Sequence record: PX405663.1
From: a phage
Reading direction: 5' to 3' (one strand)
Length of the DNA: 45,326 bases
Shown here: piece after piece, positions 2,090-36,360 of the stretch
How the letters are laid out: the number at the start of each line of letters is the position of its first letter
Numbering within the stretch: the first letter of the stretch is position 1
Notes under the pieces: generated by a model
Seen by the model: only the letters and a program-made list of their open reading frames with translations
What the model was told of the DNA's origin: nothing
The model's database searches: none
Made by a program: the position numbers and the translations under genes

Positions 2090-2419
2090 ATGAATGTAAA
2101 CGACGCAATCGAAATGTTAACGAAGACTGTTAGCAGTGAAACAAGCCGGTCATGGGCTTATACCGATGCCGTTGGGGCGGTGTTGTTTGAAATCGAACGT
2201 CTGCGACTTACCGAAAAAGAATTGCGCGCGAAGCTGGAATTACTCAACGGTACTGCAGCAAGCAAGCTGCAAAAGCACAATGAAGAAATGGAAGAATACA
2301 AAAAACAGGTTATCCGTTTGCGCGCCGAGGGCAAATCCTGGGCAATGATTGCCGAGTTGACTGGGATTAATCAGAGCACAGTGCGCTCCTGGGTACGCAA
2401 TAATAAAACTTCTAAGTAA
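2090..2419 (+). CDS. coiled-coil plus C-terminal helix-turn-helix DNA-binding protein (109 aa)
   Basis: ORF track; GAGGG SD; C-terminal SWAMIAELTGINQSTVRSWV resembles an HTH. Confidence 0.55.
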   Translation: MNVNDAIEMLTKTVSSETSRSWAYTDAVGAVLFEIERLRLTEKELRAKLELLNGTAASKLQKHNEEMEEYKKQVIRLRAEGKSWAMIAELTGINQSTVRSWVRNNKTSK

Positions 2420-7241: not shown

Positions 7242-7258
7242 TTATGCAAGCGTGATAT

Positions 7259-7293
7259 AGTCCCAGTGAGCTAAAACTTACTGGGACTTTTTT
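7259..7293 (+). terminator. rho-independent terminator-like hairpin immediately before the lysis genes
   Basis: AGTCCCAGTGAGCTAAAACTTACTGGGACT followed by T6; the next ATG (7294) abuts the T-run. Confidence 0.5.
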
Positions 7294-7584
7294 ATGGATA
7301 AGCTAAACGAGTGGTTATTCGCCCTTGCGTGTCTTGCTGGTGGCTTCGTCGGCGCACGCATTCATGGCGAGGCAACGAAAGGGCCGTTGAATTTCGTTTT
7401 ATATGTCGTAGTTGGCTTCCTGTGTGCCATATTTGGTGCGCCAGCTATTGCCGAGTGGTCTGGTTTGTCTGGCGAGCGCACTGTCGCCGGTTTGGGCTTC
7501 GTAACTGCGATCTTCTGGATGCCAATCGCTGACCGGATCCGGGAGACTATTGCGTCGTTCCGACTTCCGGGGGGTGCAAAATGA
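7294..7584 (+). CDS. holin-like membrane protein (96 aa)
   Basis: ORF track; 2-3 predicted hydrophobic helices; sits immediately upstream of the endolysin. Confidence 0.5.
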   Translation: MDKLNEWLFALACLAGGFVGARIHGEATKGPLNFVLYVVVGFLCAIFGAPAIAEWSGLSGERTVAGLGFVTAIFWMPIADRIRETIASFRLPGGAK

Positions 7585-7826: not shown

Positions 7827-8304
7827 TAACGGTCTACGATTTACGGCAGCATGGGAGGCTTTCAGCCCGGTGCCGTATTTCGCGACCAAGAAAGAGCAGG
7901 CCCGCGGCCTGTATACCTGGGGCTATGGTCACACCGGCACTAATCCGCCTCGAAGCATTACCCGTGCTGAAGCGCTGGAACTGCTCAAGCGCGATGTGGC
8001 GTATGCCGAGGACTGGGTGAACAAATACGCACATCCGAGCATTAACCAGGCGCAATTCGACGCGCTGGTGGACCTGGTAATCAACGCCGGTCCAGGTCCG
8101 ATCGTACCGGATGACGTCGCGAATGATTTCGATGATGCGGTGCGACTGGGAGACTGGGCGAAGGTCCGGGCTACTCTGCCGCAGTTCCGCAAGCAGGGTG
8201 GATCGGTGCTCTTAGGTCTGGTCCGTCGTGCAATCGGCAGACAGGCGCTATTCGATGGTAAGCAGTGGGACGTTGCCGAGCGAATCGGGCGTAACGCAGC
8301 ATAA
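7813..8304 (+). CDS. endolysin, lysozyme-like (glycoside hydrolase family 24-like)
   Basis: 163-aa ORF with AWEAF...YTWGYGHTG...QFDALVDLVINAG pattern characteristic of phage lysozymes. Confidence 0.8.
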   Translation: MRFSDNGLRFTAAWEAFSPVPYFATKKEQARGLYTWGYGHTGTNPPRSITRAEALELLKRDVAYAEDWVNKYAHPSINQAQFDALVDLVINAGPGPIVPDDVANDFDDAVRLGDWAKVRATLPQFRKQGGSVLLGLVRRAIGRQALFDGKQWDVAERIGRNAA

Positions 8305-8320
8305 TACGAGGTAACACAGT

Positions 8321-8482
8321 ATGTTAAAAAGCATTCTTGATCATAACGCCGACGCGCTTGCCGCGCTGGCTAAAACCGAAGATCCGGGCGCGCGAGCTAT
8401 CATCGCGGACACTATCAACCACGCTGGGGTCTTCGATGCGAAGCTGCCGAGTCCGCCACCGCCGGAAGAACCAGAAGTGTAA
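8321..8482 (+). CDS. small Pro-rich hypothetical protein (53 aa), not in ORF track
   Basis: Hand-read ORF MLKSILDHNADALAALAKTEDPGARAIIADTINHAGVFDAKLPSPPPPEEPEV with GAGG SD. Confidence 0.25.
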   Translation: MLKSILDHNADALAALAKTEDPGARAIIADTINHAGVFDAKLPSPPPPEEPEV

Positions 8483-8488
8483 ACTACC

Positions 8489-8515
8489 AAGCCCGGATAA
8501 TTCCGGGCTTTTTAT
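8489..8515 (+). terminator. rho-independent terminator after the lysis cassette
   Basis: AGCCCGGATAATTCCGGGCT followed by TTTTTATT. Confidence 0.55.
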
Positions 8516-8548
8516 TGCTTGACTCGGGACCGTGGTATATTGTCCACG
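8513..8548 (+). promoter_or_regulatory. promoter-like element with inverted repeat CCGTGG..CCACGG flanking TATATTG
   Basis: TTGCTTGACT...TATATTG upstream of 8575; palindrome suggests an operator. Confidence 0.35.
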
Positions 8549-8574
8549 GTCCACTAATCAGGAATTAATTAAAT

Positions 8575-9717
8575 ATGCACCCGCAAACTAAAATTACCGA
8601 TGAGCAATTGATCGCAGAAATCCAGGCAGGGACTACAGTTAAAGAGATTGCGAAGAAATACGGGATTGCCCTACGCAATGTCTATATGCGGAAAGCCCGC
8701 CTGTCGAAAAAGGGAATTGGTCACGGCAACGATGCCGTAATCCGCAAGCGCGTTGCCGATGGCTTCGGTGTCAAGCGCGTATCGGCCCTGGTACGCGGCA
8801 ATGGCGAAGAGGTCATGTCGTGGGTCATCACTGAGCAGGACAAAGAGCGCCAACTCGAAGCTATGCGCGCTGTTGTCGAGGGTATGAACAGCGAAATCAC
8901 ACCGGCAGCGCCAGTAAAAGCCCCGCCAGTACCGATCCAGGCGCTCGACTTGCTCAACCTGTACACCGTGTCAGACTTCCACCTGGGCATGTTGGCCTGG
9001 GGTGAGGAGACTGGCGAGGACTGGGATATGGCAATCGCCGAAGATCTGTTTTACCGCTGGTTTGTCGAAGCCTTCGCACGCGCACCGGACGCGGGCACTG
9101 CCGTAATTAATATTCTCGGTGATATGGCGCACTTTGATAGTCTCGATGCTGTCACTCCGGCAAGTGGTCACATACTGGACGCTGACACCCGCTACCAGAA
9201 ACTGGTCCGATACATGATTCGCATGGTGCGCAACGTAGTCGAACTGGCGCTGCAAAAACACCACAAAGTCAAACTGCTAATCGTCCAGGGAAATCATGAC
9301 GAGTCGGGTATGATTTGGCTGGCTGAGATGTTCAATACTCTGTACGAGAACGAGCCGCGCGTCGATGTGGATACGTCACCGGACGTATACAAGATGGTGC
9401 AGCACGGTAAGACCACGCTGTTTTTCCACCACGGGCACAAAGCGCGATTCGATGCTATCGAGCAGGTTATGATCGCTAAATTCAGACAGGCTTTCGGGTC
9501 CAGTGAGTACAGCTACGCGCACGTAGGCCACTTGCACCACCAGAAGATTGTAGAGTCACGCAACATGATTGTTGAACAGCACCGAACGCTCGCAGCGAAA
9601 GACGCCTACGCCAGCCGTGGCGGATGGATGTCAGGTCGTAGTGCCAACGTCATTACCTACAGCGCCAACTACGGCGAAGTTGCACGCTTAACCATTAGCC
9701 CGGAAATGTTGAAGTAA
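8575..9717 (+). CDS. N-terminal HTH domain fused to calcineurin-like metallophosphoesterase
   Basis: 380-aa ORF; metallophosphatase motifs ILGDMAHFD, GNHDES, HHGH, GHLHH. Confidence 0.6.
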   Translation: MHPQTKITDEQLIAEIQAGTTVKEIAKKYGIALRNVYMRKARLSKKGIGHGNDAVIRKRVADGFGVKRVSALVRGNGEEVMSWVITEQDKERQLEAMRAVVEGMNSEITPAAPVKAPPVPIQALDLLNLYTVSDFHLGMLAWGEETGEDWDMAIAEDLFYRWFVEAFARAPDAGTAVINILGDMAHFDSLDAVTPASGHILDADTRYQKLVRYMIRMVRNVVELALQKHHKVKLLIVQGNHDESGMIWLAEMFNTLYENEPRVDVDTSPDVYKMVQHGKTTLFFHHGHKARFDAIEQVMIAKFRQAFGSSEYSYAHVGHLHHQKIVESRNMIVEQHRTLAAKDAYASRGGWMSGRSANVITYSANYGEVARLTISPEMLK

Positions 9718-9847
9718 CGGCGACCCGTAACCCTCCCAGCCTGCCGATTTGGTGGGCTTTTTTGCGCCTGTTATAATCCCCCTTAGATGGCAGGGCCGTC
9801 TCCTATGTTGCCGATGGTCGGCGCATATGAACAAAAGGGCTTATATC

Positions 9848-10399
9848 ATGGCAGAAATCAAAGTTAAGGGCCGACGCGCCAAACTGGACGGACGAGTAGC
9901 AGTAACCCCGCGCCGTAAACCAGGCGAGCAAACAGAGCATACCAATCTCGGACCTGAGATCGAGTACGGCAAACGTCGTAAAGGCGGCAAATGCGGACGC
10001 CCTACTGACTACCGATCTGTTTACTGCGACCAGCTTCGTCGCTATTTCGCCGATGCCGTAGCCTGGCAGATCAACTACTCTGACAAGGGCGCTGCGCAAG
10101 TCATCCCCCGCCACAAGATGCCGACTCTCGGTCGCTTTGCCGCGGATATTGGCGTGGGCATTGCCTGCCTGTATCGCTGGGCGCGCGCACATGAGGAGTT
10201 CGCCGAGGCGATGGCTGACGCTATGGAGTTACAGAAAACGTTCCTGATGGAAGCTGGCGGCGTGACCATCGCGGCGGGCTTCGCTACATTCCTGCTTAAA
10301 GCAAACCACGGCGTCCGGGACGATATTCCACTGGATGACGACGAAGATGATAACGGCGACGTCGTTGTCGAACCTACCGGCAAAGGTCAGGGCGAATAA
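9848..10399 (+). CDS. terminase small subunit (candidate); start may instead be 9827
   Basis: ORF track 9749..10399; internal ATG with AAAGGG SD; basic N-terminus, acidic C-terminus; stop overlaps TerL start (TAATG). Confidence 0.5.
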   Translation: MAEIKVKGRRAKLDGRVAVTPRRKPGEQTEHTNLGPEIEYGKRRKGGKCGRPTDYRSVYCDQLRRYFADAVAWQINYSDKGAAQVIPRHKMPTLGRFAADIGVGIACLYRWARAHEEFAEAMADAMELQKTFLMEAGGVTIAAGFATFLLKANHGVRDDIPLDDDEDDNGDVVVEPTGKGQGE

Positions 10400-35837: not shown

Positions 35838-35905
35838 TTTTTAGTGGGGGCGGTATTGCCCCCGACGTGATTAAGATACTGCAACCAACCTATTGGTTGC
35901 AAGTG
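35838..35905 (-). promoter_or_regulatory. inverted pair of TGCAACCAA/TTGGTTGCA motifs followed by a leader hairpin
   Basis: Plus strand 35880..35902 TGCAACCAACCTATTGGTTGCA; GGGGGCGGTATTGCCCCC hairpin between motif and SD. Confidence 0.45.
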
Positions 35906-36360
35906 AATTTTGCAACGTTTATCGCATAAATTTTCGGGACCAGATCGCCGCACGCCCGACGAATTGCCGCGATGTTCTTCGGACAGTCTTCAATGATGAC
36001 CAGTTCCGACACGTCCGCGTAACAGACCATTTTGAACACGGCGCACGCCTTAAACTCTGGTGGCGGGGTGTCGTCCAGCATGTGGCGCATAAACAACCGG
36101 CCTACAGGGAATACCTCCAATTGCTCGGCGGTAGTGTCCCAACATTCTCTCTGCCGGTTGGTCAGATACGCGATCTCGAAGCCTTGATCTCTGTACATGC
36201 GCAGCAGCGGCAGCATATCCATGTTCAGGTCTTCGCGTACGTGCGCTTTGTGCCACTTCGCCCAAAATGTTGATTTGGTTTTTATACCCGGAACCAGGTC
36301 GGCACGCGCATCGCTTGAACCGTTAATAACGCCATCCAGATCGCAAATCAGTAATTTCAT
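35890..36360 (-). CDS. HAD-superfamily phosphatase-like protein
   Basis: 156 aa; N-terminal LICDLDGVI matches HAD motif I; GAGGAG SD. Confidence 0.5.
   Translation of the reverse strand: MKLLICDLDGVINGSSDARADLVPGIKTKSTFWAKWHKAHVREDLNMDMLPLLRMYRDQGFEIAYLTNRQRECWDTTAEQLEVFPVGRLFMRHMLDDTPPPEFKACAVFKMVCYADVSELVIIEDCPKNIAAIRRACGDLVPKIYAINVAKFTCNQ

What the first reader, a model, noticed from the sequence alone, without database searches (positions are those of the whole stretch)
8513..9717. HTH-metallophosphoesterase fusion gene directly upstream of terminase, preceded by a promoter with an operator-like palindrome
A 380-aa protein combines an N-terminal HTH with a full set of calcineurin-like phosphoesterase motifs, at a position where many phages carry an HNH endonuclease that assists terminase. 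Its promoter region contains CCGTGG-TATATTG-TCCACGG, suggesting autoregulation or repressor binding. It could be a packaging-associated nuclease/phosphatase or a regulator.
Basis: partly seen in the sequence, partly recalled or inferred. Interest (0 to 1): 0.4.

Follow-up and report, generated by a model that had tools for sequence, protein, structure and literature searches.

The report
Phage DNA-binding metallophosphoesterase, probable nuclease
The gene is real and encodes a DNA-binding domain fused to a nuclease-like metal-dependent phosphoesterase, but it belongs to a large, already catalogued and biochemically untested phage family (phage T1 has one), and neither a DNA-packaging role nor self-regulation through the promoter palindrome is supported.

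Summary
The window is a complete Dhillonvirus (HK578-like coliphage) genome. ORF 8575-9717 (+) encodes a 380-aa protein identical to vB_EcoS_PNS1 gp40 and under strong purifying selection (dN/dS 0.035).

- **Family:** PHROG 704 "DNA repair exonuclease", found in more than 2,000 phage records including T1 gp16 (45% identical). I found no biochemical study.
- **Terminase link:** adjacency is essentially Dhillonvirus-specific (3 of 46 dereplicated loci). Elsewhere the gene sits beside lysis genes, or directly before a Pnk-type 3'-phosphatase and a dNMP kinase.
- **Palindrome:** the 9-bp inverted repeat over the extended -10 is present, but falls to 3-6 of 9 matches in sister phages whose HTH is identical. 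About two such repeats are expected per genome by chance.

Best reading: an HTH-tethered DNA phosphodiesterase of phage DNA and nucleotide metabolism, transcribed as its own unit. This is an ordinary, already annotated gene whose function is still open.

The parts
8489..8510 (+). Intrinsic terminator (9-bp stem, T-run) that ends the lysis-gene unit upstream
   Evidence: Terminator scan. Conserved in all relatives examined.
8515..8541 (+). Predicted host-type promoter: weak -35-like TTGCTT/TTGACT (8515-8524) and extended -10 TGgTATATT (8533-8541)
   Evidence: Read from the sequence. The TGnTATATTG element is conserved in all 18 distinct Dhillonvirus upstream variants. It is one of about 7 intergenic extended -10 sites on the + strand of the window. 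It was not called by the canonical sigma-70 scan. The transcription start has not been mapped.
8527..8552 (.). Perfect 9-bp inverted repeat GGACCGTGG-N8-CCACGGTCC straddling the -10
   Evidence: Unique in the window. As single-stranded DNA it folds at -10.8 kcal/mol, z = -3.7. Arm complementarity is 8-9 of 9 in about half of the distinct relatives' variants and 3-6 of 9 in the rest. About 2 such repeats per genome are expected by chance.
8560..8564 (+). Ribosome-binding site AGGAA, 10 nt before the ATG
   Evidence: Read from the sequence. AATCAGGAA is conserved in Dhillonvirus and also present in Jerseyvirus.
8575..9717 (+). CDS of the 380-aa HTH-metallophosphoesterase (PHROG 704)
8599..8709 (+). 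LuxR/GerE-type helix-turn-helix, residues 9-45
   Evidence: AlphaFold2 helices 9-17, 22-29 and 33-45. HTH Pfam families hit many family members. The family profile hits GerE (PDB 1fse) at E 0.018. Foldseek top hits are the DosR, VraR, LiaR and RcsB DNA-binding domains, probability 0.97, E >= 0.055.
8764..8892 (+). Beta-hairpin (residues 64-88) plus helix (90-106), a family-specific linker module containing the nearly invariant G77 and W83
8935..9714 (+). Binuclear metallophosphoesterase domain, residues 121-380, with motifs DxH (134-136), GDxxH (182-186), GNHD (239-242), HHGH (285-288) and GHxH (318-321)
9738..9758 (+). Intrinsic terminator closing the single-gene unit
   Evidence: Terminator scan.
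9749..9777 (+). Separate promoter for the terminase operon (TTGGTG-17 nt-TATAAT, with TGt extended -10), overlapping the terminator
   Evidence: Read from the sequence. Extended -10 scan.

Best explanation
The gene encodes a two-module enzyme. A LuxR/GerE-type helix-turn-helix holds it on double-stranded DNA. A divergent two-metal phosphoesterase domain, closest in fold to the DNA nucleases PolD-DP1, Mre11 and SbcD, cuts phosphodiester bonds in DNA.

It is a core gene of Dhillonvirus and of several other siphovirus groups, including T1 gp16. It is transcribed as a one-gene unit between two terminators from its own host-type extended -10 promoter.

Its most likely job is in phage DNA and nucleotide metabolism: breaking down DNA (host chromosome or replication/recombination intermediates) and feeding nucleotide supply. 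It is unlikely to act in packaging or gene regulation.

What is shown: the architecture, the intact active site, the fold neighbours, the family size and the variable synteny. What is inferred: DNA as the substrate, nuclease activity, the biological role and the timing of expression.
For: - All metallophosphoesterase metal and catalytic residues are invariant in 70 homologues. Motif II reads GDxxH, as in Mre11's GDLFH (the Mre11 motif is from my own knowledge).
- The structure model is confident: pLDDT 93.1, pTM 0.81.
- In the family-profile search of PDB sequences, the only marginal matches to the phosphoesterase domain are SbcD, Mre11 and P. putida Nuclease MPE, at E 0.5-2.
- A DNA-binding HTH is present across the family and is duplicated in at least one longer member.
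- In Pectobacterium phage PP99 the gene sits in a run of exonuclease - endonuclease VII - MPE - HAD 3'-phosphatase - dNMP kinase - ligase.
- The trio MPE - HAD_PNKP phosphatase - T4 gp1-like dNMP kinase recurs in Webervirus, PY100 and PP99. Vibrio phage SBP1 has HAD - HNH - MPE.
- An independent pangenome study of 522 Drexlerviridae calls the gene persistent. It reports 'polynucleotide kinase' and dNMP kinase as its commonest downstream neighbours, read as nucleotide supply (PMC13164509).
- Strong purifying selection: dN/dS 0.035.
- Precedent: the mycobacteriophage A10ZJ24 Gp48 metallophosphoesterase is an early protein that disrupts host genomic DNA (PMC12287305).
Against: - No biochemical or genetic data exist for any member of this family in the literature I could search.
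- The sequence-profile links to Mre11 and SbcD are not significant.
- There is no Mre11 capping domain and no Rad50/SbcC partner.
- In this phage the HAD-like phosphatase (35890-36360, - strand) lies far away and no dNMP kinase homologue was found. The salvage-cluster argument therefore comes from other genera.
- The commonest neighbour overall is the lysis cassette (14 of 46 loci), which says nothing about DNA metabolism.
Confidence: 0.5

Rival explanations
1. Packaging helper: the phosphoesterase acts as a nuclease that assists terminase, in the way HNH endonucleases do in some phages.
For: The gene lies immediately upstream of TerS and TerL in Dhillonvirus. Two environmental relatives (L185, L203) also have terminase-like genes just downstream.
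Against: - A terminator (9738-9758) and a separate promoter lie between it and the terminase genes.
- Terminase adjacency occurs in only 3 of 46 dereplicated loci.
- In 508 of 522 Drexlerviridae the gene is fixed next to holin-endolysin-spanin, not terminase (PMC13164509).
- In Jerseyvirus it sits in a reverse-strand island inside the tail genes, about 12 kb from the terminase.
- TerL is Terminase_6N/6C with its own RNaseH-like nuclease domain, a headful type.
Confidence: 0.04
2. Autoregulated regulator: the HTH binds the 8527-8552 palindrome over its own -10 and shuts the promoter off, or another phage repressor binds there.
For: - There is a perfect 9-bp inverted repeat centred on the -10.
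- The HTH is of the LuxR/NarL type, whose members (from my own knowledge) bind inverted repeats as dimers.
- The left arm is fairly well conserved, and 9 of 18 distinct variants keep at least 8 of 9 pairs.
Against: - Phages with identical or near-identical HTH residues 1-57 (YD-2008.s, Envy) have only 5/9 and 4/9 complementarity. Teewinot, mckay, Kente, StarDew, Pubbukkers and Gluttony have 3-6/9.
- No compensatory substitutions are seen.
- Conservation of the left arm is explained by the extended -10 and promoter spacer.
- The site is unique in the genome.
- Such repeats are expected about twice per genome by chance.
- Jerseyvirus homologues (75% identical) have no comparable palindrome upstream.
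Confidence: 0.1
3. Not a DNA nuclease but a healing or signalling phosphodiesterase. Either it removes 2',3'-cyclic or 3'-phosphates from broken nucleic-acid ends together with the neighbouring Pnk-type 3'-phosphatase (repair of host-inflicted tRNA or DNA breaks), or it degrades nucleotide second messengers of defence systems.
For: - It recurs next to a stand-alone HAD_PNKP phosphatase, and in PP99 next to a ligase.
- Metallophosphoesterase domains do such healing chemistry in C. thermocellum Pnkp and lambda phosphatase (PMC2190708, listed; abstract only).
Against: - The HTH, duplicated in one member, points to double-stranded DNA rather than small molecules.
- The gene is a core, strongly conserved gene of whole genera rather than a patchy accessory gene, as most counter-defence genes are.
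- There are no PADLOC matches, and the top fold hits are nucleases.
- The partner annotated as 'polynucleotide kinase' has no kinase domain, so a full end-healing and sealing set is absent in most phages.
Confidence: 0.15
4. Protein phosphatase of the lambda-PP kind that reprogrammes host proteins.
For: It belongs to the same superfamily and carries a GNHD motif.
Confidence: 0.03

Closest known systems
PHROG 704 'DNA repair exonuclease', including phage T1 gp16 and the 'persistent DNA repair exonuclease' of Drexlerviridae
   Same: Full-length match, E 1.1e-161. T1 gp16 is 45% identical over 377 residues. Same HTH plus metallophosphoesterase architecture and same invariant residues.
   Different: In Drexlerviridae the gene precedes the lysis cassette. 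Here it follows the lysis genes and precedes the terminase. The family name is an annotation by similarity; no activity has been tested.
Mre11 / SbcD nucleases (also T4 gp47 and T5 D13, from my own knowledge)
   Different: No capping domain. No Rad50/SbcC ATPase partner in the genome. DNA contact would come from an N-terminal HTH instead. Sequence-profile similarity is not significant.
PolD small subunit DP1 (3'-5' proofreading exonuclease)
   Different: No DP2 catalytic partner. No OB fold was identified. 13% sequence identity. The phage carries a family A polymerase.
Cluster A mycobacteriophage metallophosphoesterases (A10ZJ24 Gp48; Bxb1 gp47)
   Same: Phage-encoded metallophosphoesterases with all five motifs. 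Gp48 is an early protein with phosphodiesterase activity that disrupts host genomic DNA (PMC12287305).
   Different: About 255 aa with no HTH; motif I starts near residue 10. Related only at superfamily level (hhalign probability 4.8%). From my own knowledge, Bxb1 gp47 also serves as the recombination directionality factor.
Pseudomonas putida Nuclease MPE
   Same: A stand-alone Mn2+-dependent DNA endonuclease of the superfamily that needs no Rad50 (PMC7826289, abstract seen).

Membership tests
Calcineurin-like binuclear metallophosphoesterase superfamily | Five motifs carrying the metal ligands and catalytic His: DxH, GD, GNH[DE], H, GHxH | tested here: met
   D134/H136, G182/D183, N240/H241, H286 and G318/H321 are invariant in 70 homologues; H319 is at least 90% conserved.
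Calcineurin-like binuclear metallophosphoesterase superfamily | Score above Pfam's gathering threshold for Metallophos or Metallophos_2 | tested here: not met
   23.2 vs 27 bits and 20.2 vs 21.5 bits for this protein. 17 of 70 family members hit Metallophos at E <= 0.01, and P0127 passes at 25.1 bits. This is a divergent branch.
Calcineurin-like binuclear metallophosphoesterase superfamily | The superfamily fold (a beta-sandwich flanked by helices) | tested here: met
Mre11/SbcD nuclease family | Motif II histidine (GDLFH-like) | tested here: met
   LGDMAH186; H186 is at least 90% conserved. The comparison with the Mre11 motif is from my own knowledge.
Mre11/SbcD nuclease family | C-terminal capping domain | tested here: not met
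Mre11/SbcD nuclease family | Rad50/SbcC ATPase partner gene | tested here: not met
   The ORF list of the window and the annotation of the 95%-identical phage Opt212 show no such gene.
Terminase-associated HNH endonucleases | HNH (beta-beta-alpha-metal) domain, with conserved position next to terminase | tested here: not met
   No HNH profile hit. Terminase adjacency in 3 of 46 loci. The terminase is a headful type.
LuxR/GerE (NarL/FixJ-type) HTH DNA-binding domains | Profile match to the GerE or Sigma70_r4 families | tested here: inconclusive
   This protein scores 15.2 bits on GerE against a cut-off of 23.5. Family members reach GerE 2.4e-8 and Sigma70_r4_2 1.5e-9. The family profile against PDB GerE gives E 0.018.
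LuxR/GerE (NarL/FixJ-type) HTH DNA-binding domains | Fold of the DNA-binding domain | tested here: met
   Foldseek top hits are the DosR, VraR, LiaR, RcsB and GerE C-terminal domains, probability 0.9-0.97, but E >= 0.055. The fourth (dimerisation) helix is short or absent.
Self-repressed promoter with palindromic operator | Operator symmetry conserved together with the DNA-binding domain | tested here: not met
   The HTH is identical in YD-2008.s, yet the arms match only 5/9. Eight of 18 distinct variants have <= 6/9, with no compensatory changes.
Moron (promoter-gene-terminator insertion, patchy distribution) | Own promoter and flanking terminators | tested here: met
   Terminators at 8489-8510 and 9738-9758, and a predicted extended -10 promoter.
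Moron (promoter-gene-terminator insertion, patchy distribution) | Variable presence among close relatives | tested here: not met
   All 157 Dhillonvirus records with a DNA match hold the region, 144 of them over at least 80% of the query. In Drexlerviridae the module containing it was found in 508 of 522 phages.
Lambda-type Ser/Thr protein phosphatases (PPP) | GDxVDRG / GNHE signatures and close fold match | tested here: not met

The most novel reading that the evidence does not exclude
The HTH-phosphoesterase family is the unrecognised host-DNA-destroying nuclease of T1-like, Jersey-like and HK578-like phages. Its LuxR-type HTH loads it on double-stranded DNA. It forms the first step of a conserved scavenging line (nuclease, then Pnk-type 3'-phosphatase, then dNMP kinase) that turns the host chromosome into phage DNA precursors. 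If so, it could correspond to the classical but never cloned host-DNA-degradation function of phage T1. That T1 genetics is my recollection and was not verified here.
Probability: 0.2. Interest if true: 0.55.

Novelty: already known. Interest (0 to 1): 0.28.

Why it matters
This is one of the larger phage protein families without a tested function. It has about 4,670 clusters at 50% identity and appears in more than 2,000 sequenced phages. It is a core gene of the T1-like, Jersey-like and HK578-like coliphages and Salmonella phages that are used in phage therapy and in defence-system research.

Knowing whether it degrades host DNA would bear on three things: host shut-off, the generalized-transduction risk of therapeutic phages, and triggering of defence systems that sense genome degradation.

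For this particular window the finding adds little. The gene is identical to a deposited one and is already labelled a phosphoesterase or exonuclease.

Tried and rejected
- **Sequence search of solved structures** with the protein gave only spurious repeat-protein hits. With the family profile it gave only weak HTH hits and non-significant SbcD/Mre11 hits.
- **NCBIfam and PADLOC** gave nothing useful.
- **afdb50 fold library** was unavailable. The BFVD viral library returned relatives with no functional labels.
- **Literature:**
  - Searches on Dhillonvirus, SECphi4, Drexlerviridae, Jerseyvirus and T1 host-DNA degradation found no characterisation of the family.
  - The escaper-mutant study that used SECphi4 does not mention the gene.
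  - The CRISPRi-ART phage PTXU04 proved to be an unrelated phage.
  - The Metis and STAND-receptor preprints do not concern it.
  - The phage Tn-seq preprint has no Dhillonvirus or T1-like data.
- **The search for related loci** with the 70-sequence alignment failed for lack of conserved stretches. Single-protein queries were used instead.
- **Second copies of the palindrome or its half-site** as a shared operator: none exist.
- **Whether the TGCAACCAA boxes are the target of this protein's HTH:** Jerseyvirus 'pink', whose homologue is 75% identical, has no such boxes. No link is shown, although the recognition helices differ at a few positions.
- **Homology to the Bxb1 gp47-type phage phosphoesterases:** superfamily level only.

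Full report
**What the window is.** Megablast of 8300-9900 finds 157 phage records, almost all Escherichia or Shigella Dhillonvirus (HK578-like siphoviruses), at 80-99% identity. The target protein is 100% identical to vB_EcoS_PNS1 gp40. The 45.3-kb window is therefore essentially a whole Dhillonvirus genome. The local gene order is holin, holin, endolysin, a 53-aa ORF, the target gene, TerS, TerL, portal.

**Checking the observation.**
- The ORF runs 8575-9717 on the + strand (380 aa), with an AGGAA ribosome-binding site 10 nt upstream.
- Against the orthologue of phage YD-2008.s it is 93% identical in DNA and 98% in protein, with dN/dS 0.035. It is a functional gene.
- All five calcineurin-like motifs are present. 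In an alignment of 70 homologues that are 33-49% identical to it, D134, H136, G182, D183, N240, H241, H286, G318 and H321 are invariant.
- Pfam sees the domain only below its curated thresholds. A naive profile check would half-fail, because this is a divergent branch.
- The AlphaFold2 model is confident (pLDDT 93.1, pTM 0.81). It shows three modules: a three-helix HTH (residues 9-45), a beta-hairpin plus helix (64-106), and the phosphoesterase domain (121-380).
- The HTH is a family-wide feature. Among the 70 members, Sigma70_r4_2 (best E 1.5e-9), GerE (2.4e-8), HTH_1, HTH_8 and others are hit.
- The family profile weakly matches GerE, RhlR, DesR and sigma factors in the PDB.
- A separate model of residues 1-122 finds the LuxR/NarL-type DNA-binding domains of DosR, VraR, LiaR and RcsB as best folds (probability 0.97, E >= 0.055).

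**Promoter and palindrome.**
- The gene sits between two intrinsic terminators, 8489-8510 and 9738-9758.
- Upstream lies TGgTATATT (8533-8541), an extended -10. No good -35 lies at 16-18 nt, so the canonical scan did not call a promoter. About seven intergenic extended -10 sites of this kind lie on the + strand, including one for the terminase operon at 9769-9777.
- The inverted repeat is GGACCGTGG-N8-CCACGGTCC (8527-8552). It is perfect and unique in the genome.
- Perfect 9-bp inverted repeats with a 3-12 nt spacer occur at 7 distinct loci in the window, mostly terminators. About 2 are expected by chance.
- Comparison of 18 distinct upstream variants from Dhillonviruses is more telling. TGnTATATTG is conserved in all of them.
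- Arm complementarity is 9/9 or 8/9 in about half of the variants. It is 3-6/9 in YD-2008.s, Envy, Kente, Teewinot, mckay, StarDew, Pubbukkers and Gluttony, without compensatory changes.
- HTH residues 1-57 are identical in YD-2008.s, which has 5/9, and nearly identical in Envy, which has 4/9.
- The palindrome is therefore not co-conserved with the DNA-binding domain. Autoregulation remains possible but unsupported.

**A deletion in this phage.** Many relatives (SECphi4, HK578, SO-1, mckay) carry about 150 bp more between the terminator and the palindrome. That segment holds a promoter and a 26-codon hydrophobic ORF, and the window has lost it. The same junction is seen in phage Teewinot.

**What the protein is.**
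- PHROGs places it full-length in phrog_704 "DNA repair exonuclease" (E 1e-161).
- tblastn finds it in 2,065 phage records: Dhillonvirus, Jerseyvirus, Kagunavirus, Drexlerviridae, PY100, a T7-like Pectobacterium phage, N4-like Vibrio phages and Rhodobacter phages.
- An exhaustive search finds 4,670 clusters at 50% identity.
- Phage T1 gp16 is 45% identical over its whole length.
- Motif II reads GDxxH, as in Mre11.
- There is no capping domain and no Rad50/SbcC gene in the genome. It is therefore not a member of the Mre11/SbcD family, although it may work like one.
- One longer family member carries a second HTH module, and other long members show N-terminal HTH hits. That fits a DNA-directed enzyme.

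**Gene context across the family.** I read annotated contexts in 13 lineages. I also clustered neighbours in 177 loci and dereplicated them to 46 by phosphoesterase identity below 80%. Within four genes of the target:

| Neighbour | Loci (of 46) |
|---|---|
| Lysozyme | 14 |
| Pnk-type HAD phosphatase | 7 (directly downstream in 5) |
| T4 gp1-like dNMP kinase | 6 |
| Terminase | 3 (this window, L185, L203) |

- The neighbours annotated "polynucleotide kinase" contain only the HAD_PNKP 3'-phosphatase domain.
- The P-loop neighbour is homologous across PP99, Webervirus, PY100 and T1.
- In the T7-like phage PP99 the order is exonuclease, endonuclease VII, phosphoesterase, HAD phosphatase, dNMP kinase, ligase.
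[quoted passage not shown] It names polynucleotide kinase and dNMP kinase as the commonest genes right after the exonuclease, and reads them as nucleotide supply (PMC13164509).
- In Jerseyvirus the gene lies in a small reverse-strand island inside the tail module.
The terminase is a headful type (Terminase_6N/6C; P22 gp3/Sf6-like TerS) with its own nuclease domain.

**Most likely mechanism.** An HTH-tethered two-metal phosphodiesterase acts on DNA in phage DNA and nucleotide metabolism, and is expressed from its own unit.
- Shown: the architecture, the intact catalytic centre, the nuclease-like fold neighbours and the DNA-metabolism neighbours in several lineages.
- Inferred: the substrate, the activity and the biological role.
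- The nearest functional precedent is the mycobacteriophage A10ZJ24 Gp48 metallophosphoesterase, an early protein with phosphodiesterase activity that disrupts host DNA (PMC12287305). It is related only at superfamily level.
- Rivals, in falling order: end-healing or second-messenger phosphodiesterase, autoregulator, packaging helper, protein phosphatase. They are weighed in the rival-explanations section.

**Novelty and verdict.** The gene and its family are already in the databases and are described as a persistent phage gene. Nothing about this copy is unusual, except that it has lost the upstream small ORF and promoter. The family's function is untested, which keeps a modest interest. I score interest at 0.28 and rate the finding as already known.

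Noticed in passing
window 1893, 4707/4742, 5114/5145, 5698, 16232/16246, 32347, 35880/35893, 37547/37564, 44318/44334: The motif TGCAACCAA(T) occurs 11 times exactly, against about 0.35 expected. With up to 1 mismatch there are 22 matches against 11.2 expected, and 0 of 100 shuffles reach that number. Copies lie in intergenic, promoter-like regions, often as pairs 14-31 nt apart that abut a -10-like hexamer. Dhillonvirus Opt212 also has 11 copies. Jerseyvirus 'pink' has none and T1 has 2. This looks like the genus's real phage-specific promoter or operator box. The factor that binds it is unknown.
   Followed up: partly
window 8524/8525 junction; compare L006 (SECphi4) 500-690 and L008 (HK578): Relative to SECphi4, HK578, SO-1 and mckay, the window lacks about 150 bp. 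The missing segment carries a promoter with two TGCAACCAA-type boxes and a 26-codon hydrophobic ORF (MARKDIWVLAIWTTAAFIGMVICELI) just upstream of the phosphoesterase gene. Teewinot shares the same deletion junction. YD-2008.s, Envy and Kente have a different one.
   Followed up: partly
window 7253-7294: An extended -10-like TGATATAGT is followed at once by a 12-bp stem (one mismatch, the repeat finder I15) and a T-run (AGTCCCAGTGAG...CTTACTGGGACTTTTTT) that ends at the holin start codon (7294). This is either the terminator of the upstream unit or a promoter-proximal terminator that could make the lysis genes depend on antitermination.
   Followed up: no
window 35890-36360 (- strand): A 156-aa HAD-type phosphatase-like protein (Acid_phosphat_B, 21.8 bits, below cut-off; labelled 'C-terminal phosphatase' in Opt212). 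It is a possible distant counterpart of the Pnk-type 3'-phosphatase that lies next to the phosphoesterase in other phage genera. An inverted pair of TGCAACCAA boxes sits at its 3' end.
   Followed up: partly
window 2090-2419 (+): A 109-aa protein with a C-terminal HTH that passes Pfam thresholds (HTH_23, HTH_28, Sigma70_r4_2). GenBank relatives label it variously as 'transposase' or 'Gam-like nuclease inhibitor'. It is a candidate phage transcription regulator.
   Followed up: no
window 8321-8482 (+): A conserved 53-aa ORF lies between the endolysin and the phosphoesterase unit (gp57 of Sodalis phage SO-1). It has no Pfam match. The escaper study on SECphi4 cloned a '56aa protein of unknown function' from that phage. 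I did not establish whether it is this gene.
   Followed up: no
L047, L048, L051, L043 (phages PP99, PY100, PhiKpNIH-2, T1): Genes annotated 'polynucleotide kinase' in these phages (152-192 aa) match only the HAD_PNKP 3'-phosphatase domain of Pnk and have no kinase domain. The database product name is misleading.
   Followed up: yes
L209 and L212 (IMG/VR contigs): Some environmental relatives of the phosphoesterase have a protein that looks like a tyrosine recombinase/integrase (judged by eye from the sequence) 3-4 genes downstream. The family may therefore also occur in temperate phages or prophages.
   Followed up: no
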